27,885 bases of DNA from Rhodomicrobiaceae bacterium. GTDB taxonomy: Bacteria; Pseudomonadota; Alphaproteobacteria; Rhizobiales; Rhodomicrobiaceae. Made by a program: the position numbers and the translations under genes. Positions within the stretch are counted from its first letter, which is position 1. Each line of letters opens with the position of its first letter. The notes beneath the pieces are model-generated. The model saw nothing but the letters and a program-made list of their open reading frames with translations, searched no databases and was not told the DNA's origin. Below, in pieces: positions 403-14,401 of this stretch. Where the stretch lies: assembly GCA_050288485.1 (NCBI GenBank), contig JBNKDX010000001.1:1-27885 (forward strand), in the 5' to 3' direction.

Positions 403-961
403 TCAATCCCTTCGAGGTTCGGTACAGCGACCGCGGTCAGGAAGTCTGCCCGGCGGAGGATCGAGCTTGTCGACAAGCTGCTGGTAGACGGCGTCGAAGC
501 CGGGATCGTAGTTGTCCGGATGATCGCGGATCATGGCGATGACCTTGCGGCAGCAATCGGCGGCCTCGCGGTTCTCGCCGCGGGCCTCATGCACCATGCC
601 GAGGCGGTCATAGCCATCGTGCTCGTCAGGGAACCGCTCCAGGAGGTCGCGCGCGGTCTGCTCGGCCTCGTCGAGTTTGCCGGCATGGACGAGGTCGACC
701 ACGGCGTTGGAAGCGTCCGTGAGTTCTTCGGCCTCGTCGTAGACGGTGGCGAGCATGTCGGCGAGTTCCTCCACAGCGCTGGGCAGGCGTGGTGGCGAAG
801 CGGGAGGCTGCACGGCAGCGGCGAGCCGCTCGCGTTTCGCGGCTTCATCATTCGTCAGGCAACGACTCTTTGTTTGTCCTACCGCTTCGCTGCTTGAGGA
901 CCTGTTTGTACTTCTTGCCGCTTCCGCAGGGGCAGGGATCATTGCGTCCGGTTTTGGCCAT
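403..961 (-). pseudogene. SEC-C motif + TPR-repeat protein, frameshifted by a ~37 bp insertion
   Basis: ATG at 961 reads MAKTGRNDPCPCGSGKKYKQ (SEC-C motif GRNDPCPCGSGKKYK). Removing 865-901 joins this in frame to RCLTNDEAAKRERL...GKLDEAEQTARDLLERFPDEHDGYDRLGMVHEARGENREAADCCRK (TPR-like helices) of the 403..942 ORF. Confidence 0.8.
865..901 (-). repeat. Hairpin micro-insertion, family A copy 1
   Basis: Minus strand GTCCTCAAGCAGCGAAGCGGTAGGACAAACAAAGAGT. The 27 bp core is identical to 1900-1926. GTCCT/AGGAC stem with a GCGAAGC cap. Interrupts the SEC-C motif; boundaries +/-1-2 nt. Confidence 0.85.
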
Positions 962-989
962 GGCGGTCAATACGCCGTTGCTCGGAAGG

Positions 990-1706
990 ATGCACACTTT
1001 GTACCAAGCTCTATTGTCTGACGCCGGATTTCATGCCCTCCTGCTCGCCTTCGATCGCGATCTTGCCAATGCCTGCCGGCGCAAGGGTTGCGCCTTGCGC
1101 CGCGGAGCTCTGCACTCCGCCCGGTACCGGCGCAAACCACGCGGCCGGCTCTGCAAGCTTGGCGAGGAGCACGACTGGCGTTTCAGCTATTGCTGCGCCC
1201 GCGACGGCTGCCGCACGCGGGCGACGCCGCCGTCGCTGCGCTTTCTCGGCCGCAAAGTCTATCTCGCCGCCATGGTGGCGCTGGCTGCGATCATGCAGCA
1301 TGGGATCACCGGGGCGCGGATAAGACAGCTGCACAAGGCCGCACGCGTCAGCCGCCGGACGGTTGCGCGCTGGCGGCTGTGGCGGCGCAGCACTTTCCCC
1401 GCAACCCCATTCTGGCGGACTGCGTGTGCCGCATTCATGCCGCCGGCCGATGAGGATCGTCTGCCAGCCTCGCTGCTCAAGCGCTTCTCCGATGACGGCA
1501 CATCCTGTCCGGACACCCCTGGTGCTGCACAGCTGCTGCGATGCTTGGAAGCGATGTTTACTGATCGCGACCAGGAGCGACGTTTATCTGGTCGCGACCA
1601 AACAAGTGTCGCTCCAAGCGTCGCTCTGAATCGCAGCCACAAACAGCTGATGGCGCTGTTGCGCTTCATCGCCCCCCTCACCGGAGGCTGCGAGCACGCT
1701 CAGTAG
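990..1706 (+). CDS. Cys/His-rich, HTH-containing transposon-associated protein (DUF6431-like, inferred) with a ~46 aa in-frame foreign insert; probably decayed
   Basis: ATG 990 after GGAAGG. Motifs HSARYRRKPRG, RFSYCCARDGCRTRATPPSLRFLGRKVY and HTH-like VSRRTVARWRLW. Lies directly upstream of the transposase. The insert lies between RFSDDG and HKQLMALLRF. Confidence 0.6.
   Translation: MHTLYQALLSDAGFHALLLAFDRDLANACRRKGCALRRGALHSARYRRKPRGRLCKLGEEHDWRFSYCCARDGCRTRATPPSLRFLGRKVYLAAMVALAAIMQHGITGARIRQLHKAARVSRRTVARWRLWRRSTFPATPFWRTACAAFMPPADEDRLPASLLKRFSDDGTSCPDTPGAAQLLRCLEAMFTDRDQERRLSGRDQTSVAPSVALNRSHKQLMALLRFIAPLTGGCEHAQ
1500..1637. repeat. Nested composite of family B hairpin units (~138 bp, in frame)
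   Basis: Outer inverted repeat GCTGCGAT (1535-1542) / ATCGCAGC (1630-1637). Inner units GCGAT-gtttactg-ATCGC (1551-1568) and GCGAC-gtttatctg-GTCGC-gaccaaacaag (1577-1606). Perfect palindromes TGTCCGGACA (1506-1515) and TGGTCGCGACCA (1589-1600). Confidence 0.7.
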
Positions 1707-1825
1707 CGGTCTTCTCAGATCCGCAGAGGATGCCCGTCGCCGGAAAAATCTGCGTCCTTTATCGTCTGTGCGCCCCGATCCACAGGAGTGCCGATGTGAT
1801 GGAGCAGGAGCGGAGTCCTGGAGTC

Positions 1826-1863
1826 CTTGTTGGCCGCGATCAGACAAGCATCGCGGCGAAGTC
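1826..1863 (-). repeat. Hairpin micro-insertion, family B (38 bp including a 4 bp AGTC duplication)
   Basis: AGTC at 1822-1825 and 1860-1863. Stem GCCGCGAT/ATCGCGGC with a 9 nt loop. Removal restores GV-HERW. Confidence 0.85.
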
Positions 1864-1899
1864 CACGAGCGGTGGGCGCACCTGCGCTTCTCCGTTACC

Positions 1900-1934
1900 G
1901 TCCTCAAGCAGCGAAGCGGTAGGACAGCAAAAAA
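1900..1934 (+). repeat. Hairpin micro-insertion, family A copy 2 (35 bp)
   Basis: GTCCTCAAGCAGCGAAGCGGTAGGACAGCAAAAAA. Removal restores FSVT-AQLLAAPPPKG. Confidence 0.85.
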
Positions 1935-2090
1935 GCACAGCTGTTGGCCGCTCCCCCGCCAAAGGGCGAACTGCGCGCCGCCATCGAGGCGCTCGCCGCT
2001 CAAACCTGGCGCCACCCGGCCACAGGCGATCCTGTCCGCTTCGGCTTCTCCACCATCGAGCGGTTGGTGCTACCGTGCCCTGAAGGAACG

Positions 2091-2126
2091 GTTTTTGTTG
2101 TCCTACCGCTGCGCCACTTGAGGACG
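2091..2126 (-). repeat. Hairpin micro-insertion, family A copy 3 (36 bp, ACG flanking duplication)
   Basis: Minus strand CGTCCTCAAGTGGCGCAGCGGTAGGACAACAAAAAC, 24/27 identical to the copy 1/2 core. Removal restores ALKER-SDPVGVLRR. Confidence 0.85.
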
Positions 2127-2154
2127 CAGTGATCCCGTCGGCGTCCTGCGCCGC

Positions 2155-2190
2155 ATACCGTCGCGATGCTTGTCTGATCGCGACCAGCAA
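2155..2190 (+). repeat. Hairpin micro-insertion, family B (36 bp, GCA flanking duplication)
   Basis: Stem GTCGCGAT/ATCGCGAC, loop GCTTGTCTG (same loop as the 1826-1863 copy on its own strand), tail CAGCAA. Removal restores LRR-KIRNN. Confidence 0.85.
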
Positions 2191-2463
2191 AAAATTCGTA
2201 ACAATGCCGGCCGGCAGATCGCGATGAGCGGCGCCGTCCGGCAGGCTGTGCTGGCGCAATACGCCGCGCACAAAAGCTGGAGTGTCCAGCTCCATCACGA
2301 CAATCTCGCCGCTCTGGCTGAGACGAGGCCCGACCTGCAGCCGGCGCCGTCCTACACCACGCTGCGCCGCTTCTTCAAAGCCAACGGTCTCGACCGCCGC
2401 CGCGTTACATCGCGCCAGACCGAAGGCGCCGCCCGCGCCGAGGACCGGCTCGCTGATCGCGAG

Positions 2464-2897
2464 ATGGGCGACATGTTCGGCGTCGAACTGCGGCCAACCA
2501 ATCGCTGGGGCGGCGCCAAGATGCTCCGTGACCGTTGGCAGCCCCACATCGACGCCGCGCTGTCGCGCCCCGTCCTCATCGTCGACGAGGCGCAGGAAAT
2601 GCCGCCCGCCGTACTCGCCGAACTGCGTCTCCTGTCCTCCGCACGTCTCGACAGCCACATCCTGCTCACCGTCGTCCTCGCCGGCGACGGCCGCCTCGTC
2701 GAACGTCTGCGCTCCGACGAACTGATGCCGCTCGCCAGCCGCATGCGCGTCCGCCTCGCCCCAAGTGAGCGTTTATCGCGAACGGTAAACGTTCGCTTAA
2801 GCGCGCCACGCCGGAGGAACTGCGCGAATACATCGAGCACGGACTGCAGAAAGCCGGCGCCGCCAAGATGATGACGCCCGAGCTGGTCTCTACAGTG
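2464..2897 (+). pseudogene. ExeA/IstB-like AAA+ ATPase, internal fragment
   Basis: Walker B region RPVLIVDEAQEM, followed by LLTVVLAGD and LASRMRVRL. After removing 2762-2796 it continues ALKRATPEELREYIEHGLQKAGAAKMMTPELVSTVSE. Walker A and the C-terminus are missing. Confidence 0.8.
2762..2796 (+). repeat. Hairpin micro-insertion, family C copy 1 (35 bp)
   Basis: CAAGTGAGCGTTTATCGCGAACGGTAAACGTTCGC forms a 12-14 bp stem with G-T wobbles and a CGAA loop. Removal restores the ATPase frame. Confidence 0.75.
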
Positions 2898-2930
2898 AGT
2901 GAGCGCTTGACGCTCACGATAAACGTTCGC
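2898..2930 (+). repeat. Family C copy 2 at the ATPase/IS4 junction
   Basis: AGTGAGCGCTTGACGCTCACGATAAACGTTCGC, 27/33 identical to 2764-2796. Confidence 0.7.
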
Positions 2931-3457
2931 TTTCCCGCGACGCCAATATCGCCCTTGGCAAAGGCAGTGCGATCAAGCCGCTCTCCGCCTTTCTCATCGG
3001 TCAATCCGATAAAACTGAAGCGCTCGTCCGGAAGGTCGAAGGCGCCATGAAGCCGCCATAGGCCGCTGTTCTTCTTTGCCTCTTTCCCTGCCTTCGGAAC
3101 CGTCGTCCCGTCGAGGCGCCGGATGCGCCGTCCTCCTGCCTCGGACGGGACGCCGGCGTTGAGGAGTGTGCCTGCGAGATGTTCCATCCAGGCGCCGCAC
3201 TTGCGCAGGCGCTTAAGCAGGGCAACGTTGGAAAGGTCTGCGAGACCGGCTGATGCGGCCCATGCGCTTGCCGATCTCAGCCCCATGCCGCCCAGGCAAT
3301 AGGCCAGGACCAGACGTAGCAGATCGGTTGCGCAGGCCACTGCCCGGCTTCGAAGAAACGCCCCCTTCACGCGGGCGGACGCCTCGATGGGCGCTGTCCC
3401 GCCAAGCCGGGTAAGGATGGTCTGCCAAAGCTCGTTCAGAAGCGTTTCGTGCGTCAT
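2931..3457 (-). pseudogene. IS4-family transposase, 3-prime truncated (~174 aa remain)
   Basis: DLLRLVLAYCLGGMGLRSASAWA, LSNVALLKRLR, RRLDGTT (first DDE Asp), WRLHGAFDL and LTDEKGGERLDR...GDIGVA. Similarity stops where the second catalytic Asp is expected, and the ORF then reads through unrelated antisense ATPase sequence. Confidence 0.8.
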
Positions 3458-3521
3458 GCCATGCTAGAATCTGACTCGATTCCAGCTGGTGTTAGCGCGT
3501 GTGGGCGAGATGCCTGGGGGG

Positions 3522-3563
3522 CTAAGCAGACTTTCGTTGGCCGCCCAACGAATGCCAGCTTAG
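3522..3563. repeat. Nested inverted repeat upstream of the IS4 gene
   Basis: TTCGTTGG (3533-3540) / CCAACGAA (3545-3552) inside CTAAGC (3522-3527) / GCTTAG (3558-3563). Could be another micro-insertion or an IS-end feature. Confidence 0.45.
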
Positions 3564-3752
3564 ACTCTTTATGTTTTCGCAGAGTTTTTTCGCAAAACCG
3601 GGAAGACCACTTTTGCGAACTCTGCTTAGCGGCGGAAATCCGGCATTTTTCACACGGATTGCAGTGCGGCAGCCCAGGCCCGAATGGATACGCCGTCCGG
3701 TTGAGAACGCTCATCAACGCTATTTTATGGTTTATAGCTGATAGTCCCGCGC

Positions 3753-5162
3753 ATGTTGTGGGAACAGAACTTTCAGCGCGCGGTCGAGTCTCTGGCTGGT
3801 ACGGCGGAGAATAGCGGCGCCTATGTCAGCCCCCGTTCTACCGGCGATCCGGACCAGGTCACTGAAGCCCGCTTTTTGGCGCTCGGCGGAAATTCTCCGG
3901 CGTATTCGGGCGACGCGTTCACCGAAGATCCCGCCGAGCCCTGCGCCGCCATCCTGCTGACGAGGCGCATCGACCCTGCCGAACTGGCCAATGCCCTCGC
4001 CGAGGCGCAGGACCCGGCCTTGCCGATCGCCGATTTCGGCGGCAATCCCGAGCTTCGAAGCGATTTTTCGCGCGCGAATCTGAACGTCGAGAGCTTCGGC
4101 GAGATGAAGCAGACATTCGCGCCGATCTGGCGGCGGCTCGTGGAGCTGCCGTTCCATTCCCTGCGCGAGGACCGGGCCGAACTGACGACGCTCCGTCTCA
4201 GCTATTCGCGCGCCGCGGCCATCGAAGGCGCGCTCACGGCGGAGACGCGCAATGTCGTGGAATACCCGCTCCTCGGGCTGGGCGCCTCCCCGCAGCGTCA
4301 ACTGGAGCTGCTCGCGGACGCGGGCCTTCTGCATCGCCGCTTCTTCACGCGCACGCAGACCTGCGGCAGATGCGGCTCGGCGCGGCTCAACGTGTTCGAG
4401 GCCTGCCCGTCCTGCAGCAGCGCGGACATCGCGGAGCAGGAAATCGTCCACCATTACCGCTGCGGCGCGCAGGAAGCGGAATCGCACTTCAGACAGGGCG
4501 AACTGCTGGTCTGCCCCAAATGCCGCCGCATTCTGCGCCATTTCGGCAAGGATTACGACAAGCCCGGCGTGGTGGTCACCTGCGCGTCCTGCGGCGCCTC
4601 GAATTCACAGCCGGCCGTGCGCTTCGCCTGCCTCGACTGCAAAGCAGTGACGTCGGCGGACGACTCCAAGACGATCGACTGGTTTCACTACGATCTGACT
4701 GACGACGGCATCCGCGCACTGCGCGAAGGCCGTCTGCCGCGCTTCGAGGTCGGAGCGGCGTTCGAAAAGCGCACGCGCGCCTACTCGCCGCAGGACTTCC
4801 GGCTGCTCGTCATGCAGGAGATGCGGGTGGCGGAGCGCTACAAGCGCCCCTTCGCGGTGGCGCGTCTGTCGTTCCCGAACCTCGACACCCTCCGGCACGA
4901 GATGGGGCCTATGGCCGCGAACACTGCTCTTTTGAGCGCCGTCGACGCCGTCACCGGCGTGTTGCGCGGCTCCGATTTCGTAGGCACGCGCGGCGCCGGC
5001 TCCGCGGTGATCGGTTTCCCGGAGACCACGGCCAGAGACGTCCAGGAGAATATCATCAACCGCATCCGCGAAACCATGCGCGAGACGACCGAGGTTCCGA
5101 TCAAGATTGCGGCCGAAGTTTCGGAAGGCGACGCGATCGCGTCGCTGCTGATCGAGAGTTGA
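3753..5162 (+). CDS. TackOD1-like Cys-rich metal-binding protein with C-terminal degenerate GGDEF domain (predicted c-di-GMP receptor)
   Basis: 11 clustered Cys: CGRC, CPSC, HHYRC, CPKC, CASC, CLDC. The C-terminus AERYKRPFAVARL...LRGSDFVGTRGAGSAVIGFPETT follows the GGDEF-fold pattern, with GAGSA in place of GGDEF. Confidence 0.75.
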   Translation: MLWEQNFQRAVESLAGTAENSGAYVSPRSTGDPDQVTEARFLALGGNSPAYSGDAFTEDPAEPCAAILLTRRIDPAELANALAEAQDPALPIADFGGNPELRSDFSRANLNVESFGEMKQTFAPIWRRLVELPFHSLREDRAELTTLRLSYSRAAAIEGALTAETRNVVEYPLLGLGASPQRQLELLADAGLLHRRFFTRTQTCGRCGSARLNVFEACPSCSSADIAEQEIVHHYRCGAQEAESHFRQGELLVCPKCRRILRHFGKDYDKPGVVVTCASCGASNSQPAVRFACLDCKAVTSADDSKTIDWFHYDLTDDGIRALREGRLPRFEVGAAFEKRTRAYSPQDFRLLVMQEMRVAERYKRPFAVARLSFPNLDTLRHEMGPMAANTALLSAVDAVTGVLRGSDFVGTRGAGSAVIGFPETTARDVQENIINRIRETMRETTEVPIKIAAEVSEGDAIASLLIES

Positions 5163-5233
5163 CGCCAGACAGCCGCGGGCGGCGGCGCCTGTGAAGGCGC
5201 TTCTACGCCCCCGCGTCTCCCGAGGAGCCGACC

Positions 5234-6622
5234 ATGCTGAATCGCCCGATGTTGCGGATGCACGCCTCAGACAGGGCGTCCGGCAAGGCCGACGCCTATA
5301 CGAGGCTGCGGCGGCTCATCGACAACAGGAAGGCGTCCGTCGGCATATTCGGGATGGGGCCGGTCGGGTTGCATCTGGCCTGCTCCGCGGCGCAGGGCGC
5401 AGGACTGCAGGTCATCGGGTTCGATATCGACGAGACGCGGATCAAGGCTCTGGAGAAGGGCAAGTCCTATGTGAGCGACCTGCCTTCCACCACCATCGCC
5501 AAGCTCGTCAAGAACGGCCACCTCGTGCCGACCGCGGATTTCTCGCTCGCGCACGATGCGGACGTGCTCATCATCTGCGTGCAGACGCCGCTCAACCAGT
5601 ATCGCGAGCCCGACCTTTCCCATGTCGAAAAGGCGGCGCAGACGCTGTTGCAGCACGCGCGGCCCGCACAACTCGTCATCCTAGAGTCGACGTCCTATCC
5701 GGGCACGACGCGGGACGTGCTCGGCAATCTGCTCAGCCAGCGCGGCCTGACGCTCGGCGAGGACTTGTTCCTGGCGTTTTCTCCCGACCGTCACGATCCC
5801 GCCAATCTCCGCTATGATATCGCCACGACGCCGAAGGTCGTCGGCGGCGAAGGGCGCGCGGCGCTCGATCTCGCCTGCCGCTTCTACGGTTCGTTCATCA
5901 AGGAGGTGACGCCGGTTTCCTCGGCCGACACCGCCGAAGCGGTGAAGCTGACGGAGAACATATTCCGGGCCGTCAACATCAGCCTCGTGAACGAGTTGAA
6001 GATCCTCTTCACGGAAATGGGCATCGACATCTGGGAGGTCATCGAGGCCGCCTCGACCAAGCCGTACGGCTTCATGCCGTTCTTTCCCAGTCCTGGCATG
6101 GGGGGGCACTGCATCCCCATCGACCCCTCCTATCTGGCCTGGCGGGCGCGCTCTTACGGTCTGACGGCGCGTTTCGTCGAACTGGCCGGCGAAATCGACC
6201 TGATGATGCCCAAATACGTGGTCTGCCGGCTCAACACCGCCCTCAATGTGCGGAGGAAACGCAGCCTCTTCGGATCGCGCGTCCTCGTCATCGGCGTGGC
6301 CTACAAAAAGAACGTCAACGATCTCCGCGAGACGCCCGCGGTCGCAGTCATCCGCGAGTTGCTCAAGCGCGGGGCCAAGCCGGCGTACTACGACCCGCTC
6401 GTTCACGTCCTTCCGGCGGAGGACGGGCCGGACCCCACGCCGGAGCTTCGGTCCACGGACTGGTCGCCCGCCAAGATCGCGAGATACGATGCCGTGATCA
6501 TCCATACCGACCACGACGAGATCGATTACGAAGCGCTCGCCGAGAATGCCCAGCTCATCATCGACACGCGCAACGCCTGCGGCAGCCGCGGGATCGTCAG
6601 TTCCAAAATCGTGAAGGCGTGA
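5234..6622 (+). CDS. Nucleotide-sugar 6-dehydrogenase, WbpA/WecC/TviB (UDP-HexNAc) type
   Basis: Rossmann GIFGMGPVG, ICVQTP, LESTSYPGTT, FSPDR, KLTENIFRAVNI, catalytic GGHCIPIDP, AYKKNVNDLRE. RBS GAGGAG at 5222. Confidence 0.9.
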   Translation: MLNRPMLRMHASDRASGKADAYTRLRRLIDNRKASVGIFGMGPVGLHLACSAAQGAGLQVIGFDIDETRIKALEKGKSYVSDLPSTTIAKLVKNGHLVPTADFSLAHDADVLIICVQTPLNQYREPDLSHVEKAAQTLLQHARPAQLVILESTSYPGTTRDVLGNLLSQRGLTLGEDLFLAFSPDRHDPANLRYDIATTPKVVGGEGRAALDLACRFYGSFIKEVTPVSSADTAEAVKLTENIFRAVNISLVNELKILFTEMGIDIWEVIEAASTKPYGFMPFFPSPGMGGHCIPIDPSYLAWRARSYGLTARFVELAGEIDLMMPKYVVCRLNTALNVRRKRSLFGSRVLVIGVAYKKNVNDLRETPAVAVIRELLKRGAKPAYYDPLVHVLPAEDGPDPTPELRSTDWSPAKIARYDAVIIHTDHDEIDYEALAENAQLIIDTRNACGSRGIVSSKIVKA

Positions 6623-6647
6623 AGGGGCGTGCGAGGGAGCCAGCGGC

Positions 6648-7646
6648 ATGACGAGAGCGGCGAAGGTACTGATAACGGGCGGCGGCGGCCTGATCGGCGG
6701 ACGCCTCGCCAAGCAGCTCCTGGATGCCGGCTGCATGGTGACGGTGCTGGATGTAGCGCCGCTGGACGCGGGCAGCCTGCCTTATCTGGGCATTGCGCGC
6801 CACCCCGGCCTGGCCTATCTGAAGGGTTCGGTGACGGACACCGAAGCGTGGCGCAGCCTGCCGGACAACTTCGACCGCATCGTGCATGCGGCGGCCATTC
6901 TCGGCATCGAGCGCGTGCCCCGCGAGCAGATCGAGACCATGGATGTGACCGTCGTCGGCACGAGAATGGCGCTCGATTTCGCGCGGACCCTGCCCGGTCT
7001 GGCGCGCTTTCTCTATCTGAGCACATCCGAAATCTACGGTGTTTCGGCGCAGGGGCTGGACGAAGCCGCGTCCGCCGTCATCCAGACCCAGGGCCGCAGA
7101 TGGTGCTATGCCTCGGCCAAGCTGACCGCCGAATTCTACGTGCAGGCTTTCGCTGAACGTTACGGCTTCCCCTATACCATCGTCCGTCCCTTCAACGTCT
7201 ACGGACCGTCGCCCACTTGCAGCGGCGCGCTCACGACGATGGTCAAACGCGCAGCCGCCGGCGACGCCATCCGCGTGACGGGGACGGGGCATCAGACACG
7301 CTCCTGGTGCCATGTGCAGGATTTCGCCAAAGGATTGCAGCGCTGCCTGTTCGACCACGCGGGCTGGAACCAGACGTTCAATCTCGGCAGCGACACGACC
7401 GAAGTCTCTATCCTCCAGCTCGCGCAGACGATCCGCGACATGGCGCAGTCCTCGTCCGCGATCGTGATCGGCGACGGCGGCGAGCCGGACGTGCTGAACC
7501 GGCGGCCGGACCTGACGAAAGCGCGGAAACTGCTGGGGTTTGAAGCGCCGACCGGTCTGCCCGAGGGGATCGAGGATATTTTGGCCTGGGTGAAAAAGAC
7601 AGTGCCGAAAAATCTCGCGACGGCCGAAAAAGTGCCCGGGACTTGA
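6648..7646 (+). CDS. Extended SDR, UDP-uronic acid decarboxylase (UXS/ArnA-like) or epimerase
   Basis: ITGGGGLIG, HAAA, YLSTSEIYG, RWCYASAK (YxxxK), RPFNVYGP, GTGHQTRSWCHVQD, FNLG. The TSE and RWxY motifs resemble the decarboxylase subgroup. Confidence 0.8.
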   Translation: MTRAAKVLITGGGGLIGGRLAKQLLDAGCMVTVLDVAPLDAGSLPYLGIARHPGLAYLKGSVTDTEAWRSLPDNFDRIVHAAAILGIERVPREQIETMDVTVVGTRMALDFARTLPGLARFLYLSTSEIYGVSAQGLDEAASAVIQTQGRRWCYASAKLTAEFYVQAFAERYGFPYTIVRPFNVYGPSPTCSGALTTMVKRAAAGDAIRVTGTGHQTRSWCHVQDFAKGLQRCLFDHAGWNQTFNLGSDTTEVSILQLAQTIRDMAQSSSAIVIGDGGEPDVLNRRPDLTKARKLLGFEAPTGLPEGIEDILAWVKKTVPKNLATAEKVPGT

Positions 7647-7669
7647 TCGCAGAAGGGAGTATCGCTGCA

Positions 7670-8926
7670 ATGGATGCGTTGGACATACTGCGATCATGGG
7701 GCGTAAATAGCTGGCTATATTTTTCTTGGTTCGCGTGCATATTCTTAACGCCGTACTATTATATCGGACCAATGCTTGTACCGATAGGGATGCTATGGAG
7801 CCGGAGCAAGCCCGCAATCACGCCAAATCTCAGCTTCAGCGTGGTTGTGGCGGGCAACAACGAAGAACACCAGCTTCGCAGGTTCGTGGAATCGATTGCC
7901 GAGCAGACGATCTGTGCGGAAGAAGGAAGAATCGAATTGGTCGTGGTCGATGACGGTTCCACAGATCGAACAGCCGAAATCGCTTGGGAACTCCAGCGAG
8001 AAGGCAAAATCGACAAGGTGCTGAAACTGGATCAGCGGGGCGGAAAAGCGGCCGCCCTCAATCTCGCCCATACAGTGTGCACGGGCGATATCATCATCTC
8101 GGCCGACGTTGACACCACCTTCGACAGGGACGCCTTCGCCAGAATACTGGCCTATTTCGCCGACCCGCGCGTCGGCGCTGTCAGTTGTATTGTCAGTCCG
8201 CTCAACGATGACACCAATCTGATCACCCGCTATCAGGTCATCGAATACGCGTTCTTCGCTTATTTGCGCCGCTGCATTTCGAGCGCCCTAAATATGATGC
8301 CGATGCTCGTGGGCGCTTTTTACGCCTGCCGCCGCACGGCGCTCCAGCAAGTGGGCGCATTGGAGCCGGGCGCCGTCGAAGACGTCGATCTCGCCCTGAA
8401 GCTCCGCCAGGCCGGATGGCGTGTCCTCCTGGCCCCTGAGGCTCGTGCGCTGACAATTGTGCCGGATACGATTGCGGGCCTCATCGTGCAGCGCCTGCGC
8501 TGGGATCAGGGTGTGATTAGTCTCTGGACTCGCAAGTCCGTTTCCACAATCAATCCCCGCAACGCCAACTTCTCTATCCTGAATGCACTCGTATTGCTCG
8601 AACATCTTAGCCATGAGGTTATACTTGGAATTATAATTGGGCAGCTAATATTTGTATTGTATATAACAAGCGCCGAGTTCTGGCAGATTTATGTTGGAAC
8701 TATAGTTATAATAGAGTCGTTCCTTATATTTATAGTTTTTATTGCAGCGGCTGTTGAGGGGCAGGTGCCGTTTAGATACGTCGTTTATGTGCCGTATTAC
8801 ATCGTTCAAACGTACATACTGCGCATAATCCGATCGGTTTCAGTGATTTGGGAGCTGATTTTCTTCAGCTCTTTAAAGAACCCAGTCCTTCCAGCTCGCG
8901 TGAGAAGCCAGGTGGAGGTTTCGTGA
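7670..8926 (+). CDS. Processive GT2 polysaccharide synthase (PgaC/IcaA/HasA-like architecture)
   Basis: DDGSTD, GGKAAALN, DVD, EDVD and QRLRW (D,D,D,QxxRW). One N-terminal and several C-terminal hydrophobic segments. ATG 7670 follows GGAG; an alternative TTG at 7643 overlaps the SDR stop. Confidence 0.85.
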   Translation: MDALDILRSWGVNSWLYFSWFACIFLTPYYYIGPMLVPIGMLWSRSKPAITPNLSFSVVVAGNNEEHQLRRFVESIAEQTICAEEGRIELVVVDDGSTDRTAEIAWELQREGKIDKVLKLDQRGGKAAALNLAHTVCTGDIIISADVDTTFDRDAFARILAYFADPRVGAVSCIVSPLNDDTNLITRYQVIEYAFFAYLRRCISSALNMMPMLVGAFYACRRTALQQVGALEPGAVEDVDLALKLRQAGWRVLLAPEARALTIVPDTIAGLIVQRLRWDQGVISLWTRKSVSTINPRNANFSILNALVLLEHLSHEVILGIIIGQLIFVLYITSAEFWQIYVGTIVIIESFLIFIVFIAAAVEGQVPFRYVVYVPYYIVQTYILRIIRSVSVIWELIFFSSLKNPVLPARVRSQVEVS

Positions 8927-9024
8927 TGCATCCTTTCTACCGGCAGCACGAGATATTGATCTTCAATGACACCGATGCCGACGCCAATATCCGGCGCCCC
9001 ATCCACAGCCAAGTGGAGACATGA
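8926..9024 (+). CDS. Putative 32 aa micro-ORF MHPFYRQHEILIFNDTDADANIRRPIHSQVET
   Basis: GGAGGT at 8914-8919. Its ATG overlaps the GT2 stop (TGATG) and its own TGA overlaps the ATG of the next gene (ATGA). Below the size cutoff of the ORF track. Confidence 0.45.
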   Translation: MHPFYRQHEILIFNDTDADANIRRPIHSQVET

Positions 9025-10067
9025 TGATGCGATTCCTGAAACGGCATGGCGCCGCGCGAATTTTGCCCGTCGAAGACCGCAAGCGCCGACTGGGTCTGAT
9101 CCGTTGGCTGTATCTTGGCAGCATTATCGTGCTGATCATCTGGCTGTTCGATCTGTTCTTCGGCGGCTTGTTTTACCTAAGGAGCGACGGTCTGGTTGTC
9201 GGCCAGCCGGGGGCCATCGCTGCTGAATACCCCATCACCGTGCGCGAACTCGCGGTGCGCGAGGGTGACGTCGTCAAGGCCGGGCAGGTGGCGGCGATCG
9301 GGTCGTCCCAGAACGTGGCCGAGACCATCGCGCGCCTGACCTCCGAACTCGCGGTGCGGCAGGGCCGTCTCAGTGAGTTGCGCGTCCGCAGCCATGTGGT
9401 CAATGCTCTGATGCCGCTCGCCGAGAATCGTTTGAAAGTGGCGACACATGCCCGCGAGGAAATGCACCGGCTTCTGGACAGTGGCCTTACAGCGCTCAAT
9501 CAACGCACGGCGGCGGTCGAACTTGAATACCGCGCGAAGACTGATCTCGCGACGTTGTCAGCCGAAAAGAAAGTCCTCGACAAGGAGATCTCCTCGCTGA
9601 CGGTTGCCTTAGGGGAAGCCACAAAGGCTCTCACCGATCTTCGCCGCCTTTACGATGGGGGCCGCCTGCGCGTGCCTTTGGACGGCGTTATCGGCCGCCG
9701 CCTTGCGAGCACGGGTTCGGTGATGCGTGCGGGCGAGCCACTGTTCGAGGTGTATGGCAACAATCTCTATATCCTTGCCTATCTGCCCTCGGGCACGCTC
9801 TACACGGTGAAACCCGGCGATCCGGTGCGCATTTCGACTGGCCTCGACACTTACCGCGGGACGGTCAAGAGCATCGAACCATACGCAGCCGCGCTGCCAC
9901 ATGAGTTTCAGCGGGCTTTTAGGCCGGTCGAGCGTCAGCAGCTCATGCGTGTCGAATTCGACCGCGGCACGACGCCGCCGCCCGTGTTCACCAAGGTGTG
10001 GCTGACGTCCACCCGCTTGGCGGCACGATGGTTCGACGCCTTTCTCAGAAAAGTCTGGCCGACCTGA
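9021..10067 (+). CDS. HlyD-family membrane fusion / periplasmic adaptor protein
   Basis: Basic N-terminus, one TM segment (WLYLGSIIVLIIWLFDLFFGGL), lipoyl-like half motifs ELAVREGDVVKAGQ and VPLDGVIG...VMRAGEPLFEV flanking a coiled coil. RBS GGAG at 9015. Confidence 0.85.
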   Translation: MMMRFLKRHGAARILPVEDRKRRLGLIRWLYLGSIIVLIIWLFDLFFGGLFYLRSDGLVVGQPGAIAAEYPITVRELAVREGDVVKAGQVAAIGSSQNVAETIARLTSELAVRQGRLSELRVRSHVVNALMPLAENRLKVATHAREEMHRLLDSGLTALNQRTAAVELEYRAKTDLATLSAEKKVLDKEISSLTVALGEATKALTDLRRLYDGGRLRVPLDGVIGRRLASTGSVMRAGEPLFEVYGNNLYILAYLPSGTLYTVKPGDPVRISTGLDTYRGTVKSIEPYAAALPHEFQRAFRPVERQQLMRVEFDRGTTPPPVFTKVWLTSTRLAARWFDAFLRKVWPT

Positions 10068-10083
10068 TCTCAGAAAAGGATAG

Positions 10084-10112
10084 GCTGCGGCGCATTGCGA
10101 TACCGCCGCAGC
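10084..10112 (+). terminator. GC-rich hairpin after the EPS operon (possible terminator)
   Basis: Perfect 9 bp stem GCTGCGGCG/CGCCGCAGC, 11 nt loop, no long U tract. Confidence 0.4.
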
Positions 10113-10190
10113 TTCACAAACCCCGTCGTCCCGGTGTATGGAGGAGAGAGGGTTAATGCGGCATATCTCTTCAGATTCGGCGGGTGATGA

Positions 10191-11165
10191 ATGTCTATCG
10201 CGCTCAACAGCTCGACATTGGTGACGGTTTTCGGCGGTTCCGGCTTCGTCGGGCGCTACGTGGTTCAGGCGCTGGCGCGCACCGGCTGCCGGGTGCGCGT
10301 CGCCGTAAGGCGGCCGGACCTTGCCGGACATCTGCAGCCGCTCGGCAATGTCGGACAGATTTGCGCTGTCCAGGCCAATCTGCGCTATGAAGATTCGATC
10401 CGCCGCGCCGTCGAAGGGGCGGACGCCGTCATCAATCTCGTCGGCATCCTCCAGCAGGGCGGAAAACAGACCTTCCGAACGCTCCAGGCCGTCGGCGCGG
10501 GACTGACCGCGCGCGCGGCGAAGGAGGCGGGGGCGCGCGCTTTCGTGCACATCTCGGCGCTCGGCACCAACCGCCTAAGCAGTTCCGCTTATGCCCGGAC
10601 CAAGGCCGAGGGCGAAGATCTGGTCGCGCGCGCCTTTCCCGGCGCGGTGATCCTCAGGCCGTCGATCATGTTCGGGCCGGAGGACGATTTCTTCAACCGT
10701 TTCGCCGCGATGGCGCTTATATCCCCTGTCATACCGCTCCTGGGCGGCGGGCGCACGCGCTTTCAGCCGGTCTATGTGGGCGACACGGCGCAGGCGGTGA
10801 TCGCCGGGCTGGACGGACGCGCCAAGCCGGGCGTCGTTTACGAACTGGGCGGACCGCGCGTCTACACGTTCCGGGAGCTGCTCGACCTCGTCGCCCAATA
10901 CACCGGCCGCCGCCGTTCCTATTTCCCGGTCCCGTTCTGGCTGGCGAAACTTCAGGGCCTGTTCCTGCAGGTGCTGCCGAACGCGCCGCTCACGCTCGAT
11001 CAGGTCCGGCTCCTGCAGACCGACAACGTCGTCAGCGCCGAGGCCATCGACGAAGGCCGCACGCTGGAGGCGTTGGGCGTCGAACTGCACGCCCTGGAGA
11101 CCATCGTGCCAAGCTACCTCGTCCGCTTCCGCCCGAAGGGCGAGTTCTCGCTGCATCAGGCCTGA
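10191..11165 (+). CDS. Complex I NDUFA9-like atypical SDR
   Basis: VTVFGGSGFVGRYVV, RVAVRRPDLAGHLQPLGNVGQI, VINLVGIL, YARTKAEGE, RPSIMFGPEDDFFNRFA, FQPVYVGD. Confidence 0.9.
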   Translation: MSIALNSSTLVTVFGGSGFVGRYVVQALARTGCRVRVAVRRPDLAGHLQPLGNVGQICAVQANLRYEDSIRRAVEGADAVINLVGILQQGGKQTFRTLQAVGAGLTARAAKEAGARAFVHISALGTNRLSSSAYARTKAEGEDLVARAFPGAVILRPSIMFGPEDDFFNRFAAMALISPVIPLLGGGRTRFQPVYVGDTAQAVIAGLDGRAKPGVVYELGGPRVYTFRELLDLVAQYTGRRRSYFPVPFWLAKLQGLFLQVLPNAPLTLDQVRLLQTDNVVSAEAIDEGRTLEALGVELHALETIVPSYLVRFRPKGEFSLHQA

Positions 11166-11470
11166 AGCCGGGCGGCCCCGCGGCACGATAGACACACGAA
11201 CGGGCTGCGATGGTGCGGACTACGTATTCCGCACTCGACACCCCCTGGTGGGAATCGCGTAATACCCTGTGTAGTGGCGTTGGCAAGAGACGCACAACCT
11301 CGCTGTTCCATCACCGGTGCGGGCTTTTCTGTGTCGGCCTGGGGCGCGAGTTAACGCTTTGCTGATATTGCGTCGCGTACAAACGTTTGTGGCCCTTCGC
11401 CGGGACCAGCGTTTGCGGCGCCATTTCGGCGGTTCTGGTCGCGAGTTGCGCCTAATTCCCGGTTCCGGTC

Positions 11471-12169
11471 ATGCTCAGGCTTATTCATTACCCGCTCTGT
11501 CCGTTCTCCCGCTCCATAAGGCTGGCGCTGGGCGAATGCGGCGTGGTCGTGGAGCTTGACGAAGAACGGCCATGGAGCTGGCGGCGCGAGTTCCTCAAGC
11601 TCAACCCCGCCGGAACGCTGCCCGTGCTCTTGGAACGCGGCGAATTCATTCTCGCCGGGGCTTACGCGATCTCCGAATATCTCGGCGAAGCCCACACCAA
11701 GACCAATGGCGAAGGCATACCGCGCAATCTCCTGTTCCCCGGCGCGGGCGCGGAGCGCGCCGAGGTGCGGCGGCTCGCGGACTGGTTCCACCGCAAGCTC
11801 GATGAAGAAGCCAGCCGCTATCTCCTGGAGGAGAAGCTCTACCAGCGTTTCGCCGACCTCGGGCGCAGCACGCCGGATACCGATCTCATCCGTGCGGGGC
11901 GCGCCAATCTACGCTATCATCTCAGCTACATCGGCCATCTGCTGGACACGCGGAAATGGCTGGCGGGCGATGCCTTGAGTTTCGCCGATCTGGCTGCGGC
12001 AGCACATCTGTCGGTGCTGGACTATCTCGGCGAAGTGCCGTGGGACGAGTTCCCGGAGGCCAAGGCGTGGTATGCGCTCCTGAAATCGCGCCCGTCCTTC
12101 CAGCCGCTTCTGGTGGACCGCCTGCCCGGCGTGGCGCCGCCGCGCCTTTACGCGGAGCTTGATTTTTGA
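11471..12169 (+). CDS. fzlA: Glutathione S-transferase family protein, probable FzlA orthologue
   Basis: HYPLCPFSRSIRLAL, LNPAGTLPVL, RWLADWF-like helix, WLAGDALSFADLAAAAHLSVLDY, KSRPSFQPLL. Position next to queG matches the conserved alphaproteobacterial arrangement; orthology is inferred. Confidence 0.75.
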   Translation: MLRLIHYPLCPFSRSIRLALGECGVVVELDEERPWSWRREFLKLNPAGTLPVLLERGEFILAGAYAISEYLGEAHTKTNGEGIPRNLLFPGAGAERAEVRRLADWFHRKLDEEASRYLLEEKLYQRFADLGRSTPDTDLIRAGRANLRYHLSYIGHLLDTRKWLAGDALSFADLAAAAHLSVLDYLGEVPWDEFPEAKAWYALLKSRPSFQPLLVDRLPGVAPPRLYAELDF

Positions 12170-13326
12170 CGCAGGCCATCGACAGTGCGGCGGGAGCGGA
12201 CCGGCGGTACTCAGCCGTGGCCGTCAAGGCCGCACTCTTCGAGCGGGCGGAGCGCGAGGGCTTCGATGCGGCGGGTGTGACCACGCCGGACGGTATCGGG
12301 CAGGCAGGCGAGCGTCTGGCGGCGTTTCTGACCGAGGGCCTGCACGGCGGCATGGACTGGCTTGAGGCGCATCCAGAGCGGCGGCGGTGCCCTTCGGCGC
12401 TCTGGCCGGATGTGCGCTCCATCGTCATGCTGGGCATGAACTACGCGCCGGAAACCGATCCGCTGGCCATACTCGCCGAGCGCGGACGCGGCGCGGTTTC
12501 CGTCTATGCCCGGGGCCGCGACTATCACGACATCGTCAAAGGCAAGCTAAAGGGGCTCGCGGGCTGGCTCGCGTACACGACAGGCGAGGACGTGAAAGTC
12601 TTCGTCGATACCGCGCCGGTGATGGAAAAGCCGCTGGCGCAGGCGGCGGGGCTGGGCTGGCAGGGCAAACATACCAATCTCGTGTCGCGCCGCCTCGGCT
12701 CATGGCTGTTCCTCGGCGCCATCTTCACCACCGCGCACCTGCCGCCGGACGAGCCGGAGCGCGATCACTGCGGCGCCTGCCGCCGCTGTCTCGACGCCTG
12801 CCCCACGAACGCCTTTCCGGCCCCCTACCGGCTCGACGCGCGGCGCTGCATCTCCTATCTCACCATTGAGCACAAGGGCCACATCCCGTGCGAATTCCGG
12901 CGCGCCATCGGCAACCGCATCTATGGTTGTGACGACTGTCTGGCCGTGTGCCCGTGGAACAAGTTCGCCGCTGCCGCCAGAGAGGCGAAATTCGCCGCGC
13001 GGCGCGCAACGGCGGGGGCACCGCTCGCGGAGCTGCTGACGATGGACGACGCCGCGTTCCGGACCGCATTCGCGGGCACGGCCATCAAGCGGACGGGCCA
13101 CGCCCGCTTCATGCGCAACGTGCTGATCGCGGCGGGGAACGCGGATGACGCGCGTCTCCTGCGCCCTGTCATGGCGCATCTCGCCGCTCCCGAGCCGCTG
13201 ATCCGCGCCATGGCCGTGTGGGCGACACGCCGTTTTTTCCCCTGCGGCGATCCAGAGATTGCGCGCATCCGCCAAAATATGCTGCAAAGTGAGACGGATG
13301 AGGCCGTTCGCGCAGAACTGAACTGA
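12166..13326 (+). CDS. queG: Epoxyqueuosine reductase
   Basis: YARGRDYH, FVDTAPVMEKPLA, GWQGKHTNL, CGACRRCLDACPT, CISYLTIE, GCDDCLAVCPWN. TTG start overlaps the upstream stop. Confidence 0.95.
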   Translation: MTQAIDSAAGADRRYSAVAVKAALFERAEREGFDAAGVTTPDGIGQAGERLAAFLTEGLHGGMDWLEAHPERRRCPSALWPDVRSIVMLGMNYAPETDPLAILAERGRGAVSVYARGRDYHDIVKGKLKGLAGWLAYTTGEDVKVFVDTAPVMEKPLAQAAGLGWQGKHTNLVSRRLGSWLFLGAIFTTAHLPPDEPERDHCGACRRCLDACPTNAFPAPYRLDARRCISYLTIEHKGHIPCEFRRAIGNRIYGCDDCLAVCPWNKFAAAAREAKFAARRATAGAPLAELLTMDDAAFRTAFAGTAIKRTGHARFMRNVLIAAGNADDARLLRPVMAHLAAPEPLIRAMAVWATRRFFPCGDPEIARIRQNMLQSETDEAVRAELN

Positions 13327-13347
13327 TTGGCTCGAAGAGGTTTCGTG

Positions 13348-14223: not shown

Positions 14224-14360
14224 ATACGCTTCATCAAGCCCGCCTCCAGGCCGCATTCCCGATCCTTCTTGCAAGTCAGGACCGTAGCCCGGATTAAGGA
14301 TAGGCGCGGATTTTCGCCCTTGCCCTCGCCCGATCGCCCCCTTCCCGCACGCAGAAGGGC

Positions 14361-14388: not shown

Positions 14389-14401
14389 AACAGACCAGTG
14401 A

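What the first reader, a model, noticed from the sequence alone, without database searches (positions are those of the whole stretch)
5234..7646. Dehydrogenase plus decarboxylase-like pair suggests a UDP-XylNAc (or UDP-xylose) donor
Seen: the dehydrogenase has the GGHCIPIDP signature of UDP-HexNAc 6-dehydrogenases. The adjacent SDR has STSEIYG, RWCYASAK and a QTRS motif like UDP-uronate decarboxylases. Established: in the Bacillus cereus group, a UDP-GlcNAc dehydrogenase and a UDP-GlcNAcA decarboxylase produce UDP-XylNAc, and a XylNAc/GlcNAcA exopolysaccharide is known there. Inference: a similar two-step route may feed this synthase, giving a xylan- or chitin-like pentose polymer that I do not know of in Alphaproteobacteria. 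Substrate cannot be proved from motifs alone.
Basis: partly seen in the sequence, partly recalled or inferred. Interest (0 to 1): 0.7.

Follow-up and report, generated by a model that had tools for sequence, protein, structure and literature searches.

The report
Sugar dehydrogenase–decarboxylase pair in exopolysaccharide operon
Two adjacent, intact genes in an uncultured soil alphaproteobacterium most likely turn a common activated amino sugar into a five-carbon amino sugar for a membrane polymer synthase, but the exact product cannot be read from sequence.

Summary

The decarboxylase reading is supported. The SDR carries the STSE / YxxxK / QTR set. In a careful tree it falls with ArnA, UXS and Bacillus UXNAcS (99/95 support) and away from a 4,6-dehydratase, a uronate 4-epimerase and GalE.

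It is not an orthologue of UXNAcS or UXS. It belongs to a separate, uncharacterised clade that is sister to Pcryo_0617 (PDB 8vr2). That enzyme is an oxidoreductase/decarboxylase, and its relatives usually sit next to a DegT aminotransferase.

This operon and its same-genus relative lack that aminotransferase. UDP-XylNAc is therefore plausible, but a 4-keto or 4-amino pentose, or non-acetylated UDP-xylose, remains open.

The dehydrogenase resembles Bacillus UDP-GlcNAc 6-dehydrogenase (40% identity, GGHCIP[IV]DP). The genus also has a separate UDP-glucose dehydrogenase.

New here: the pair recurs beside TackOD1-GT2 synthase modules in several arrangements. In this window the GT2 is a recently swapped-in, low-GC cassette that displaced an epimerase plus GT2, so the link between pair and synthase is uncertain.

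The scan has not found this pair on other DNA.

The parts
3753..5162 (+). TackOD1 zinc-ribbon protein with a weak GGDEF-like C-terminus. It is the first gene of the block and the presumed regulator of the synthase.
   Evidence: PF18551 at E 1.5e-47. Only weak hits to diguanylate cyclase models at residues 353-446. 86% identical to its L012 orthologue.
5234..6622 (+). Nucleotide-sugar 6-dehydrogenase of the HexNAc type (catalytic-Cys motif GGHCIPIDP, nt 6101-6127). The probable reaction is UDP-GlcNAc to UDP-GlcNAcA.
   Evidence: TIGR03026 at 377.8 bits. UDP-ManNAc dehydrogenase and TviB models score 186-217 bits, above AglM (156), TuaD (116) and Ugd (35). Best PDB matches: 4r16, Cap5O, CalS8. 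39.7% identity (313 bits) to the Bacillus UGlcNAcDH orthologue, 31% to WecC, 26% to Ugd. dN/dS 0.145.
6648..7646 (+). Extended SDR, a probable UDP-(2-acetamido)uronate 4-oxidase/6-decarboxylase. Key residues: S125-T126-S127-E128, Y154, K158, N183, R218.
   Evidence: PF01370 at E 1e-43. 8vr2 scores 182 bits against 102 for human UXS. Model pLDDT 93.4. Best structural match is human UXS, Z 39.9. Trees place it in the decarboxylase superclade at 99/95.
7595..8958 (+). Low-GC replacement cassette carrying the GT2 processive synthase (ORF 7643/7670-8926, QRLRW at residues 283-287).
   Evidence: blastn synteny with L012 breaks at 7594 and resumes at 8959. GC is 0.527 and GC3 0.62, against 0.64-0.66 and 0.81-0.86 in the neighbouring genes. 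PgaC/IcaA model 133 bits, NodC 73 bits. 44% identical to the L012 GT2 and 66% to P0122.
9021..10067 (+). HlyD-type membrane-fusion (periplasmic adaptor) protein, the last gene of the block.
   Evidence: PF13437 at E 7e-12. 76% identical to its L012 orthologue.

Best explanation
The two genes form a two-step donor-sugar cassette inside an accessory, synthase-dependent exopolysaccharide island.

Step 1 (inferred from family). The dehydrogenase oxidises C6 of a UDP-2-acetamido-hexose, most likely UDP-GlcNAc, to the uronic acid, using two NAD+.

Step 2 (inferred from motifs, phylogeny and context). The SDR oxidises C4 with NAD+. The resulting beta-keto acid loses CO2, giving a UDP-2-acetamido-4-keto-pentose.

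Step 3 (least certain). In relatives that carry a DegT aminotransferase, this 4-keto sugar is aminated. Here no aminotransferase or separate reductase is present, so the same enzyme most likely re-reduces C4, as UXS, UXNAcS and the bifunctional Ralstonia enzyme do. The product would be UDP-XylNAc.

Step 4 (inferred from gene order only). The product, possibly together with UDP-GlcNAcA, is used by the adjacent GT2 synthase and exported with the membrane-fusion protein.
For: - Catalytic set. The SDR has STSE, Y154xxxK158, N183 and R218. These are invariant in 43 homologues and align with the same residues of ArnA, UXS and UXNAcS. The 4,6-dehydratase has STDE and the epimerases have SSCS or SSAT at that place.
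- Phylogeny. In the careful tree the SDR family joins ArnA, UXS and UXNAcS at 99/95, excluding RffG, a uronate 4-epimerase and GalE. The quick 88-row tree agrees at 97.
- Nearest solved relative by sequence is 8vr2. Its entry title is 'Pcryo_0617 oxidoreductase/decarboxylase'. Lower-clade members are its orthologues (401 bits).
- A dehydrogenase lies within 10 kb in 20 of 23 members of the window's half of the family, and directly upstream in all six members of its own clade.
- The dehydrogenase resembles the Bacillus UGlcNAcDH orthologue (40% identity, GGHCIPVDP). The genus also has a separate TuaD-type UDP-glucose dehydrogenase, so a second one would be redundant.
- Three gene orders without DegT place the pair with TackOD1/GT2 modules: the window, L012 and L015. 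A fourth DegT-less order (the P0008 contig) shows TackOD1 only before the contig ends. This suggests the pair alone yields a usable donor.
- Both genes are under purifying selection.
- ArnA and RsU4kpxs are reported to give UDP-xylose besides the 4-keto product (PMC5607165).
Against: - No enzyme of the window's subclade has been assayed.
- The SDR is outside the UXNAcS and UXS clades.
- The characterised relative, and most relatives by gene neighbourhood, appear to hand a 4-keto sugar to an aminotransferase. Release rather than reduction may therefore be the ancestral behaviour.
- L012 carries an extra epimerase 62% identical to Klebsiella 5u4q, which I take to be of the UDP-glucuronate 4-epimerase type. 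This hints at non-acetylated uronic acids.
- The GT2 here is a recent foreign cassette, so donor and synthase may not be matched.
- The genome is only 70.5% complete, so an unlinked aminotransferase or reductase cannot be excluded.
Confidence: 0.5

Rival explanations
1. ArnA/Pcryo_0617-type route. The SDR releases NADH and the UDP-2-acetamido-4-keto-pentose. An unlinked aminotransferase, or one missing from this incomplete genome, converts it to a UDP-4-amino-4-deoxy-pentosamine. The polymer would then carry a 4-amino sugar.
For: - The sister clade contains Pcryo_0617.
- DegT lies within 1.5 kb in 46 of 79 relatives and within 10 kb in 59 of 79.
- Inside the window's own six-member clade, L013 and L016 have DegT adjacent. 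L014's genome has the orthologue beside RR-TackOD1-GT2 on another contig.
- G000 is only 70.5% complete and has a DegT fragment at the end of contig C243.
Against: - No orthologue of that DegT was found in G000. The 98%-complete same-genus genome G006 (= G001, the genome of L012) has only a 30%-identical generic one.
- At least three DegT-less arrangements keep the pair intact.
Confidence: 0.2
2. Non-acetylated route. The dehydrogenase acts on UDP-glucose, as CalS8 does within the same dehydrogenase branch. The SDR then makes UDP-xylose or UDP-4-keto-xylose from UDP-GlcA.
For: - CalS8 is among the best PDB matches of the dehydrogenase (162.6 bits).
- L012 adds an epimerase 62% identical to 5u4q, with Bacillus UDP-GlcA 4-epimerase as the next match.
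- S. meliloti has an analogous uxs1-uxe-apsS-apsE-apsH cluster for an arabinose-containing polysaccharide (PMC12560781).
Against: - The dehydrogenase is closer to the Bacillus UGlcNAcDH orthologue (313 bits) than to any UDP-glucose enzyme.
- The genus already has a TuaD-type UDP-glucose dehydrogenase.
- The GT2s are PgaC/NodC/chitin-synthase-like.
- Both characterised near relatives of the SDR reportedly use 2-acetamido uronates. For UXNAcS this is cited; for Pcryo_0617 it rests on my recollection.
Confidence: 0.15
3. The SDR does not decarboxylate. It is a C4 epimerase (UDP-GlcNAcA to UDP-GalNAcA, as TviC or BB2924) or another redox enzyme, and the polymer is a polyuronide.
For: - Dehydrogenase plus 4-epimerase pairs are common (Bordetella BB2925/BB2924, PMC12407052).
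- Whole-fold comparison cannot separate the epimerases from the decarboxylases (Z 37-40 for both).
Against: - The Glu of STSE is present and invariant, while the epimerases have SSxS or SSAT.
- The tree separates the SDR from the epimerases at 99/95.
- L012 carries a true epimerase-type gene right next to the SDR orthologue, which would be redundant.
Confidence: 0.07
4. The pair is functionally uncoupled from the present synthase. After the GT2 cassette swap, the new synthase uses a housekeeping donor such as UDP-GlcNAc. The pair is then a not-yet-decayed remnant, or serves another glycan.
For: - The GT2 region (7595-8958) has GC 0.53 and GC3 0.62, against 0.65 and above 0.8 around it. It replaces the epimerase plus GT2 of L012.
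- Most TackOD1-GT2-MFP modules have no sugar-nucleotide genes at all.
Against: - dN/dS is 0.15 and 0.29, and there is no deviation at conserved positions.
- The nearest relative of the window's GT2 (P0122, 66%) comes from the same metagenome sample as a contig reading dehydrogenase-SDR-TackOD1-contig end. That hints this GT2 lineage also travels with the pair.
Confidence: 0.15

Closest known systems
Pcryo_0617 oxidoreductase/decarboxylase of Psychrobacter cryohalolentis K5 (PDB 8vr2)
   Same: It is the best solved-structure match by sequence (E 1.4e-52, 182 bits). It shares STSE, RWxYAxSK, RPFNVYGP and the Q-x-R motif (QIR in 8vr2, QTR here), and belongs to the same well-supported family (96/98).
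   Different: It lies in the sister subclade, whose members score about 400 bits to it. That subclade normally has a DegT aminotransferase next door; the window has none. From my memory, not from a held paper, its substrate is a 2,3-diacetamido uronate on the route to a triacetamido-L-arabinose. The sugar itself is documented in PMC8040287.
UGlcNAcDH + UXNAcS operon of Bacillus cereus NVH 391-98 (GU784842/GU784843), which makes UDP-XylNAc
   Same: The gene order is the same: dehydrogenase, then SDR, next to GT2 genes (L095, L123). The motifs match ([16 protein letters not shown], RWSYAxCK, QTRC). The dehydrogenase is 40% identical.
   Different: The SDR is only 31% identical and sits in a separate clade (100/99 for UXNAcS alone). 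The Bacillus glycosyltransferases are not a TackOD1/membrane-fusion synthase system.
[quoted passage not shown]
   Same: Same decarboxylase superclade, with the RWxY..SK and STSE motifs. Most relatives follow the same logic of pairing a decarboxylase with an aminotransferase. These enzymes are reported to make UDP-xylose as a side product (PMC5607165).
   Different: 25% identity to ArnA. It is stand-alone, with no formyltransferase domain. NF008872 scores 82 bits against a cut-off of 294. No aminotransferase is present here.
uxs1-uxe-apsS-apsE-apsH cluster of Sinorhizobium (arabinose-containing polysaccharide, c-di-GMP controlled through CuxR)
   Same: An alphaproteobacterial cluster that, by its gene names, combines a UDP-xylose synthase and a 4-epimerase with further aps genes for a c-di-GMP-controlled polysaccharide. 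From my memory, apsS encodes a GT2 synthase. L012's order (decarboxylase, epimerase, GT2) parallels it.
   Different: That system uses a true UXS (the window SDR is 30% identical to the UXS family) and a different regulator. It has no cluster-borne HexNAc-type dehydrogenase.
mxdABCD of Shewanella oneidensis
   Same: A regulator, a GT2 and an efflux-pump-like adaptor in one operon, needed for biofilm matrix (PMC3691769).
   Different: The mxd operon is described there as mxdABCD only, without sugar-nucleotide genes, and its polymer is unknown. I did not compare the sequences here.

Membership tests
UDP-glucose/GDP-mannose dehydrogenase superfamily (TIGR03026) | Three domains (NAD-binding, central, UDP-binding) and a score above the curated cut-off. 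| tested here: met
   All three Pfam domains are present. TIGR03026 scores 377.8 bits against a cut-off of 189.8.
UDP-GlcNAc 6-dehydrogenase (UGlcNAcDH/WbpA type) | Catalytic-Cys motif GGHCIP(I/V)DP, and closer to HexNAc-type than to Ugd-type dehydrogenases. | tested here: met
   GGHCIPIDP at residues 290-298. 40% identity to the Bacillus UGlcNAcDH orthologue, against 31% to WecC and 26% to Ugd.
UDP-GlcNAc 6-dehydrogenase (UGlcNAcDH/WbpA type) | Oxidises UDP-GlcNAc, and not UDP-Glc, UDP-ManNAc or UDP-GalNAc. | not testable with these tools
   No curated equivalog model reached its cut-off. CalS8, a glucose-type enzyme, lies in the same branch.
Extended SDR (NAD-dependent epimerase/dehydratase, PF01370) | GxxGxxG fingerprint, catalytic S/T...YxxxK, and the two-domain fold. 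| tested here: met
   GGGGLIG at 11-17, S125/T126, Y154, K158. Model Z is 36-40 to many family members.
UDP-uronate 4-oxidase/6-decarboxylases (UXS / ArnA / UXNAcS / Pcryo_0617 superclade) | The Glu of S-T-S-E, the Arg of Q-x-R and the Asn of RxFNxxGP are conserved, and the protein falls in one clade with known decarboxylases. | tested here: met
   Motif alignment. These residues are invariant in the family. Superclade support is 99/95 and 97.
UDP-uronate 4-oxidase/6-decarboxylases (UXS / ArnA / UXNAcS / Pcryo_0617 superclade) | Loss of CO2 from a UDP-uronic acid. | not testable with these tools
   This needs an enzyme assay. The supporting context is a dehydrogenase directly upstream in all six clade members.
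UXNAcS (UDP-XylNAc synthase, Bacillus cereus group) | Orthology: falls inside the UXNAcS clade. | tested here: not met
   31% identity. UXNAcS orthologues form their own clade at 100/99, outside the window's family.
UXS (UDP-xylose synthase) | Falls inside the UXS clade and carries the YDEGKR-type motif. | tested here: not met
   The window has RWCYASAK where UXS has RACYDEGK. UXS forms a separate clade at 100/99.
ArnA/Pcryo_0617-type pathway (4-keto-pentose handed to an aminotransferase) | A DegT/ArnB-type aminotransferase encoded with the decarboxylase. | tested here: not met
   None in the 27.9 kb window. No orthologue was found in G000, which is 70.5% complete. It is present in the sister loci L013 and L016.
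UDP-hexuronate / HexNAc(A) 4-epimerases (GalE, WbpP, TviC, Gla) | An SSxS/SSAT-type motif without the catalytic Glu, and grouping with the epimerases. | tested here: not met
   The window has STSE and is separated from GalE and from the L012 epimerase in both trees.

The most novel reading that the evidence does not exclude
The dehydrogenase-decarboxylase pair is a portable 'donor cassette' that plugs into TackOD1-regulated GT2 synthase modules of soil Alphaproteobacteria. It would convert a presumably HexNAc-polymerising machine into one that makes a so far undescribed 2-acetamido-pentose polymer (poly-XylNAc, a C6-less, chitin- or PNAG-like polymer). In the sister systems that carry DegT, the product would be a cationic 4-amino-pentosamine polymer. 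The SDR clade would be a fourth, uncharacterised lineage of UDP-uronate decarboxylases.
Probability: 0.3. Interest if true: 0.7.

Novelty: new variant of a known kind. Interest (0 to 1): 0.5.

Why it matters
Only a few enzyme lineages are known to make UDP-pentoses by decarboxylation: UXS, ArnA, UAS, UXNAcS and Pcryo_0617. XylNAc has so far been reported only from the Bacillus cereus group.

If this clade makes UDP-XylNAc or a 4-keto/4-amino analogue for a processive synthase, it would define a new bacterial matrix polymer. It would also add a new lineage of decarboxylases and a pair of enzymes for making rare UDP-sugars.

It would show as well how synthase-dependent polysaccharide systems diversify, by swapping donor-sugar and GT2 cassettes. 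If the assay shows plain UDP-xylose or an epimerase, the locus is an ordinary variant.

Tried and rejected
- **Curated models.** No curated NCBIfam equivalog reached its cut-off for the dehydrogenase, for the SDR, or for ten relatives, including LegB, RmlB, ArnA, the bifunctional Ralstonia enzyme, GalE and TviC. Annotation by model is therefore not possible.
- **Fold comparison.** Whole-fold comparison does not discriminate function. Epimerases, dehydratases and decarboxylases all score Z 36-40.
- **Literature.** Searches for '8VR2' and 'UDP-XylNAc', and the primary UXNAcS and Pzx papers by DOI or PMC id, found nothing usable. Pcryo_0617 biochemistry beyond the PDB title therefore rests on my memory.
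- **Promoter and terminator scan.** It gave nothing above shuffles.
- **Rhizobial plasmid homologue of the dehydrogenase.** It is about 50% identical, but its context is uninformative.
- **Downstream SDR2 (10191-11165) as the missing 4-ketoreductase: rejected.** It is 95% conserved and lies next to fzlA in a same-genus genome that lacks the whole cluster.
- **The DegT-linked relatives as LegB-type 4,6-dehydratases: rejected.** They score 120-155 bits against a cut-off of 475, and one of them, L088, scores about 400 bits to the decarboxylase 8vr2.
- **Joining the P0008 and P0122 contigs.** Not possible, because no DNA was available for that sample.
Full report
**Setting**

The window is the whole contig C1 of a metagenome-assembled genome (2.38 Mb, 432 contigs, 70.5% complete). 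Its nearest public relatives are Rhodomicrobiaceae and Hyphomicrobiales MAGs.

The finding lies in a co-directional block with short or no gaps:
- TackOD1 protein with a weak GGDEF-like tail (3753-5162)
- nucleotide-sugar dehydrogenase (5234-6622)
- extended SDR (6648-7646)
- GT2 synthase (7643/7670-8926)
- HlyD-type adaptor (9021-10067)

Housekeeping genes follow: an NmrA-like SDR, fzlA, queG and ppx, and further on rpsB, tsf and pyrH.

**Observation**

- The dehydrogenase has all three family domains and scores 377.8 bits on TIGR03026.
- The SDR scores E 1e-43 on PF01370 and gives a confident model (pLDDT 93.4, pTM 0.92).
- Compared with the same-genus orthologues (L012), dN/dS is 0.145 and 0.29.
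- The SDR deviates at no position conserved in at least 80% of 43 homologues.

These are intact genes under selection.

**The dehydrogenase**

HMM scores favour HexNAc-type enzymes: archaeal UDP-ManNAc dehydrogenase 217 bits, WecC 196, TviB 186. UDP-glucose types score lower: AglM 156, TuaD 116, Ugd 35. None reaches an equivalog cut-off. The best solved relatives are 4r16, Cap5O, CalS8 and 3g79; true UGDHs score 110 bits or less.

A Bacillus cereus plasmid (L095) carries GT, GT, GT2, dehydrogenase and SDR genes in a row. Its two enzymes match the published B. cereus NVH 391-98 UGlcNAcDH and UXNAcS in every stretch I translated from Additional file 1 of PMC5078965. Examples are [33 protein letters not shown], KIRWSYAxCKTLEE, IVRYFNIYGPRAKDGP and QTRCFTYVSDA. 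I therefore used them as stand-ins for the characterised enzymes.

The window's dehydrogenase is 39.7% identical (313 bits) to that UGlcNAcDH orthologue, 31% to E. coli WecC and 26% to Ugd.

The genus also has a separate TuaD-type UDP-glucose dehydrogenase: G005:C7, G006:C24 and a fragment on G000:C294, scoring 453 bits on the TuaD model. A second glucose enzyme would be redundant. UDP-GlcNAc is the most economical substrate, since no 2- or 4-epimerase is present in the window. This is inference, not proof. CalS8 shows that glucose-specific enzymes exist in this branch.

**The SDR**

By sequence, the best solved relative is 8vr2 (E 1.4e-52, 182 bits). Next come human UXS (102 bits), the epimerase PelX (99) and ArnA (60-63). 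The PDB title of 8vr2 is 'Pcryo_0617 oxidoreductase/decarboxylase from Psychrobacter cryohalolentis K5'. Fold comparison alone cannot separate the functions (Z 36-40 for all classes).

The residue alignment is informative:

| Protein | Motif at the STSE position |
|---|---|
| Window SDR, ArnA, UXS, UXNAcS | S-T-S-E |
| RffG (4,6-dehydratase) | S-T-D-E |
| L012 epimerase | S-S-C-S |
| GalE | S-S-A-T |

The Arg of QTR and the Asn of RPFNxxGP are also kept. RWxYxxxK is shared with ArnA and UXNAcS. All of these residues are invariant in the family.

A careful tree of 37 sequences gives these supports:
- ArnA C-terminus + two UXNAcS orthologues + three UXS-family proteins + the window's family: 99/95. 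RffG, the uronate epimerase and GalE fall outside.
- The window's family: 96/98, separate from UXS (100/99) and UXNAcS (100/99).

The 88-row quick tree agrees.

**Two halves of the family**

- The lower half holds the Pcryo_0617 orthologues. One of its members, L088, scores 401 bits to 8vr2.
- The upper half (98/93) holds the window. Its members score 182-188 bits to 8vr2, and none has been characterised.

Gene neighbourhoods of 79 genomic relatives:

| Neighbour | Within 1.5 kb | Within 10 kb |
|---|---|---|
| DegT aminotransferase | 46 of 79 | 59 of 79 |
| Nucleotide-sugar dehydrogenase | 19 of 79 | 32 of 79 |

In the window's half, 20 of 23 members have a dehydrogenase and 17 of 23 a DegT within 10 kb. 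By analogy with ArnA/ArnB, I read the family norm as dehydrogenase, then decarboxylase, then a 4-keto-pentose that is aminated.

**The window's own clade (six members, 100/100)**

All six have the dehydrogenase directly upstream.
- L013 and L016 have DegT adjacent.
- L014's genome has the DegT orthologue (73%) on another contig, beside RR-TackOD1, GT2 and two small unknown genes.
- L015, L012 and the window have none.

G006, the same-genus genome of L012 (98% complete; it appears as G001), has only a 30%-identical generic DegT. G000 has no match at E 1e-10.

The aminotransferase step is thus absent from this lineage as far as can be seen. That is why re-reduction to UDP-XylNAc by the same enzyme is my preferred reading. 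ArnA and the Ralstonia enzyme are reported to make UDP-xylose alongside the 4-keto product (PMC5607165). Release of the 4-keto sugar to an unlinked enzyme remains a serious rival.

**Link to the synthase**

The dehydrogenase-SDR pair recurs with TackOD1/GT2 modules in several orders:
- TackOD1, dehydrogenase, SDR, GT2, MFP (the window)
- TackOD1, dehydrogenase, SDR, epimerase, GT2, MFP (L012)
- RR-TackOD1, GT2, unkB, unkA, with or without DegT, with dehydrogenase-SDR (L016, L015)
- dehydrogenase, SDR, TackOD1, then the contig end (P0008)

Most TackOD1-GT2-MFP modules have no sugar genes at all (L091, L092). The pair is therefore an add-on. The SDR was found in only 1 of 40 relatives searched. 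The same-genus genome G005 has the flanking SDR2-fzlA genes without the cluster. The block is an accessory island.

**The GT2 swap**

Window and L012 are collinear at 82-85% nucleotide identity over 3714-7594 and 8959-15635. In between, window 7595-8958 (one GT2) stands in place of L012 10894-13252 (an epimerase plus a GT2 that is 44% identical).
- The window's GT2 has GC 0.527 and GC3 0.62. Its neighbours have 0.64-0.66 and 0.81-0.86.
- L012's two genes are near-native at 0.61-0.62.

The window's lineage therefore recently replaced epimerase plus GT2 with a foreign GT2. The new gene still has the D, DxD and QRLRW signatures.

This weakens the claim that the pair feeds this particular synthase. 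A partial counterpoint is that the nearest GT2 relative (P0122, 66%) comes from the same metagenome sample as the P0008 contig, which ends right after dehydrogenase-SDR-TackOD1.

L012's extra gene is 62% identical to Klebsiella 5u4q. Its next-best match is Bacillus UDP-GlcA 4-epimerase, and it has the epimerase-type motif. This keeps a non-acetylated route (UDP-GlcA/GalA and xylose) alive.

**Comparison with known systems**

In function, the pair works like the Bacillus UGlcNAcDH/UXNAcS operon and like ArnA. By membership, the SDR belongs to neither, nor to UXS. It is an uncharacterised sister lineage of Pcryo_0617.

It uses different sugar-nucleotide enzymes and a TackOD1 regulator whose function the 2018 census calls obscure (PMC5847659).

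**Verdict**

| Statement | My estimate |
|---|---|
| The pair is a decarboxylating two-step route | about 0.8 |
| The sugar carries a 2-acetamido group | about 0.6-0.65 |
| The end product is UDP-XylNAc specifically | about 0.35-0.4 |
| It is used by the present GT2 | about 0.6 |

This is a new variant of a known kind. It is of moderate interest and directly testable with two recombinant enzymes.

Noticed in passing
window 7595-8958 (compare L012 10894-13252): A cassette swap. One low-GC GT2 (GC 0.53, GC3 0.62) replaces the uronate 4-epimerase-like gene plus a 44%-identical GT2 of the same-genus relative. The flanks stay 82-85% identical.
   Followed up: yes
L016/L001 12426-16534; L015 3877-8038; L108 4288-9575: A second type of the system: response-regulator-TackOD1, GT2, two small conserved proteins without Pfam hits (160 and 187 aa), with or without DegT, and with the dehydrogenase-SDR pair nearby or on another contig.
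   Followed up: partly
L091 6631-10306; L092 6652-10378: The three-gene core of TackOD1, GT2 and membrane-fusion protein occurs without any sugar-nucleotide genes. It was seen in both Alphaproteobacteria loci inspected, and 420-aa homologues of this GT2 are numerous in soil metagenomes. Its polymer is unknown.
   Followed up: partly
window 10191-11165: An NmrA/HpnA-like SDR just after the cluster. It is 95% identical in L012 and lies next to fzlA in a same-genus genome without the cluster, so it is housekeeping and not the missing ketoreductase.
   Followed up: yes
L004/L005 3453-14058 (Pectobacterium parvum): A 38%-identical SDR sits in a conserved cluster with a dehydrogenase, a CDP-alcohol phosphatidyltransferase-like gene, DegT, an LPG_synthase_TM protein, a FemAB-like gene, an APH kinase and an M20 peptidase. 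This may be an amino-pentose-modified lipid or small molecule. P0019 and P0020 show a similar SDR, unknown gene, M20 set.
   Followed up: no
L012 10947-11954 versus PDB 5u4q: PDB 5u4q is labelled dTDP-glucose 4,6-dehydratase. In the alignment it carries an SSSS motif at the catalytic site, with no Asp-Glu, like the uronate 4-epimerases. The label looks wrong.
   Followed up: no
metagenome contigs of P0008 and P0122 (JGI sample 3300075153): One contig ends with dehydrogenase-SDR-TackOD1. Another, from the same sample, starts 169 nt before the closest relative of the window's GT2, followed by the MFP. They may be one locus split by assembly.
   Followed up: partly
window 1-3750: The four long ORFs tested here (256-897, 789-1706, 1840-2658, 2666-3457) have no Pfam match. 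Earlier notes of the scan describe a transposon relic with small hairpin repeats in this region.
   Followed up: no
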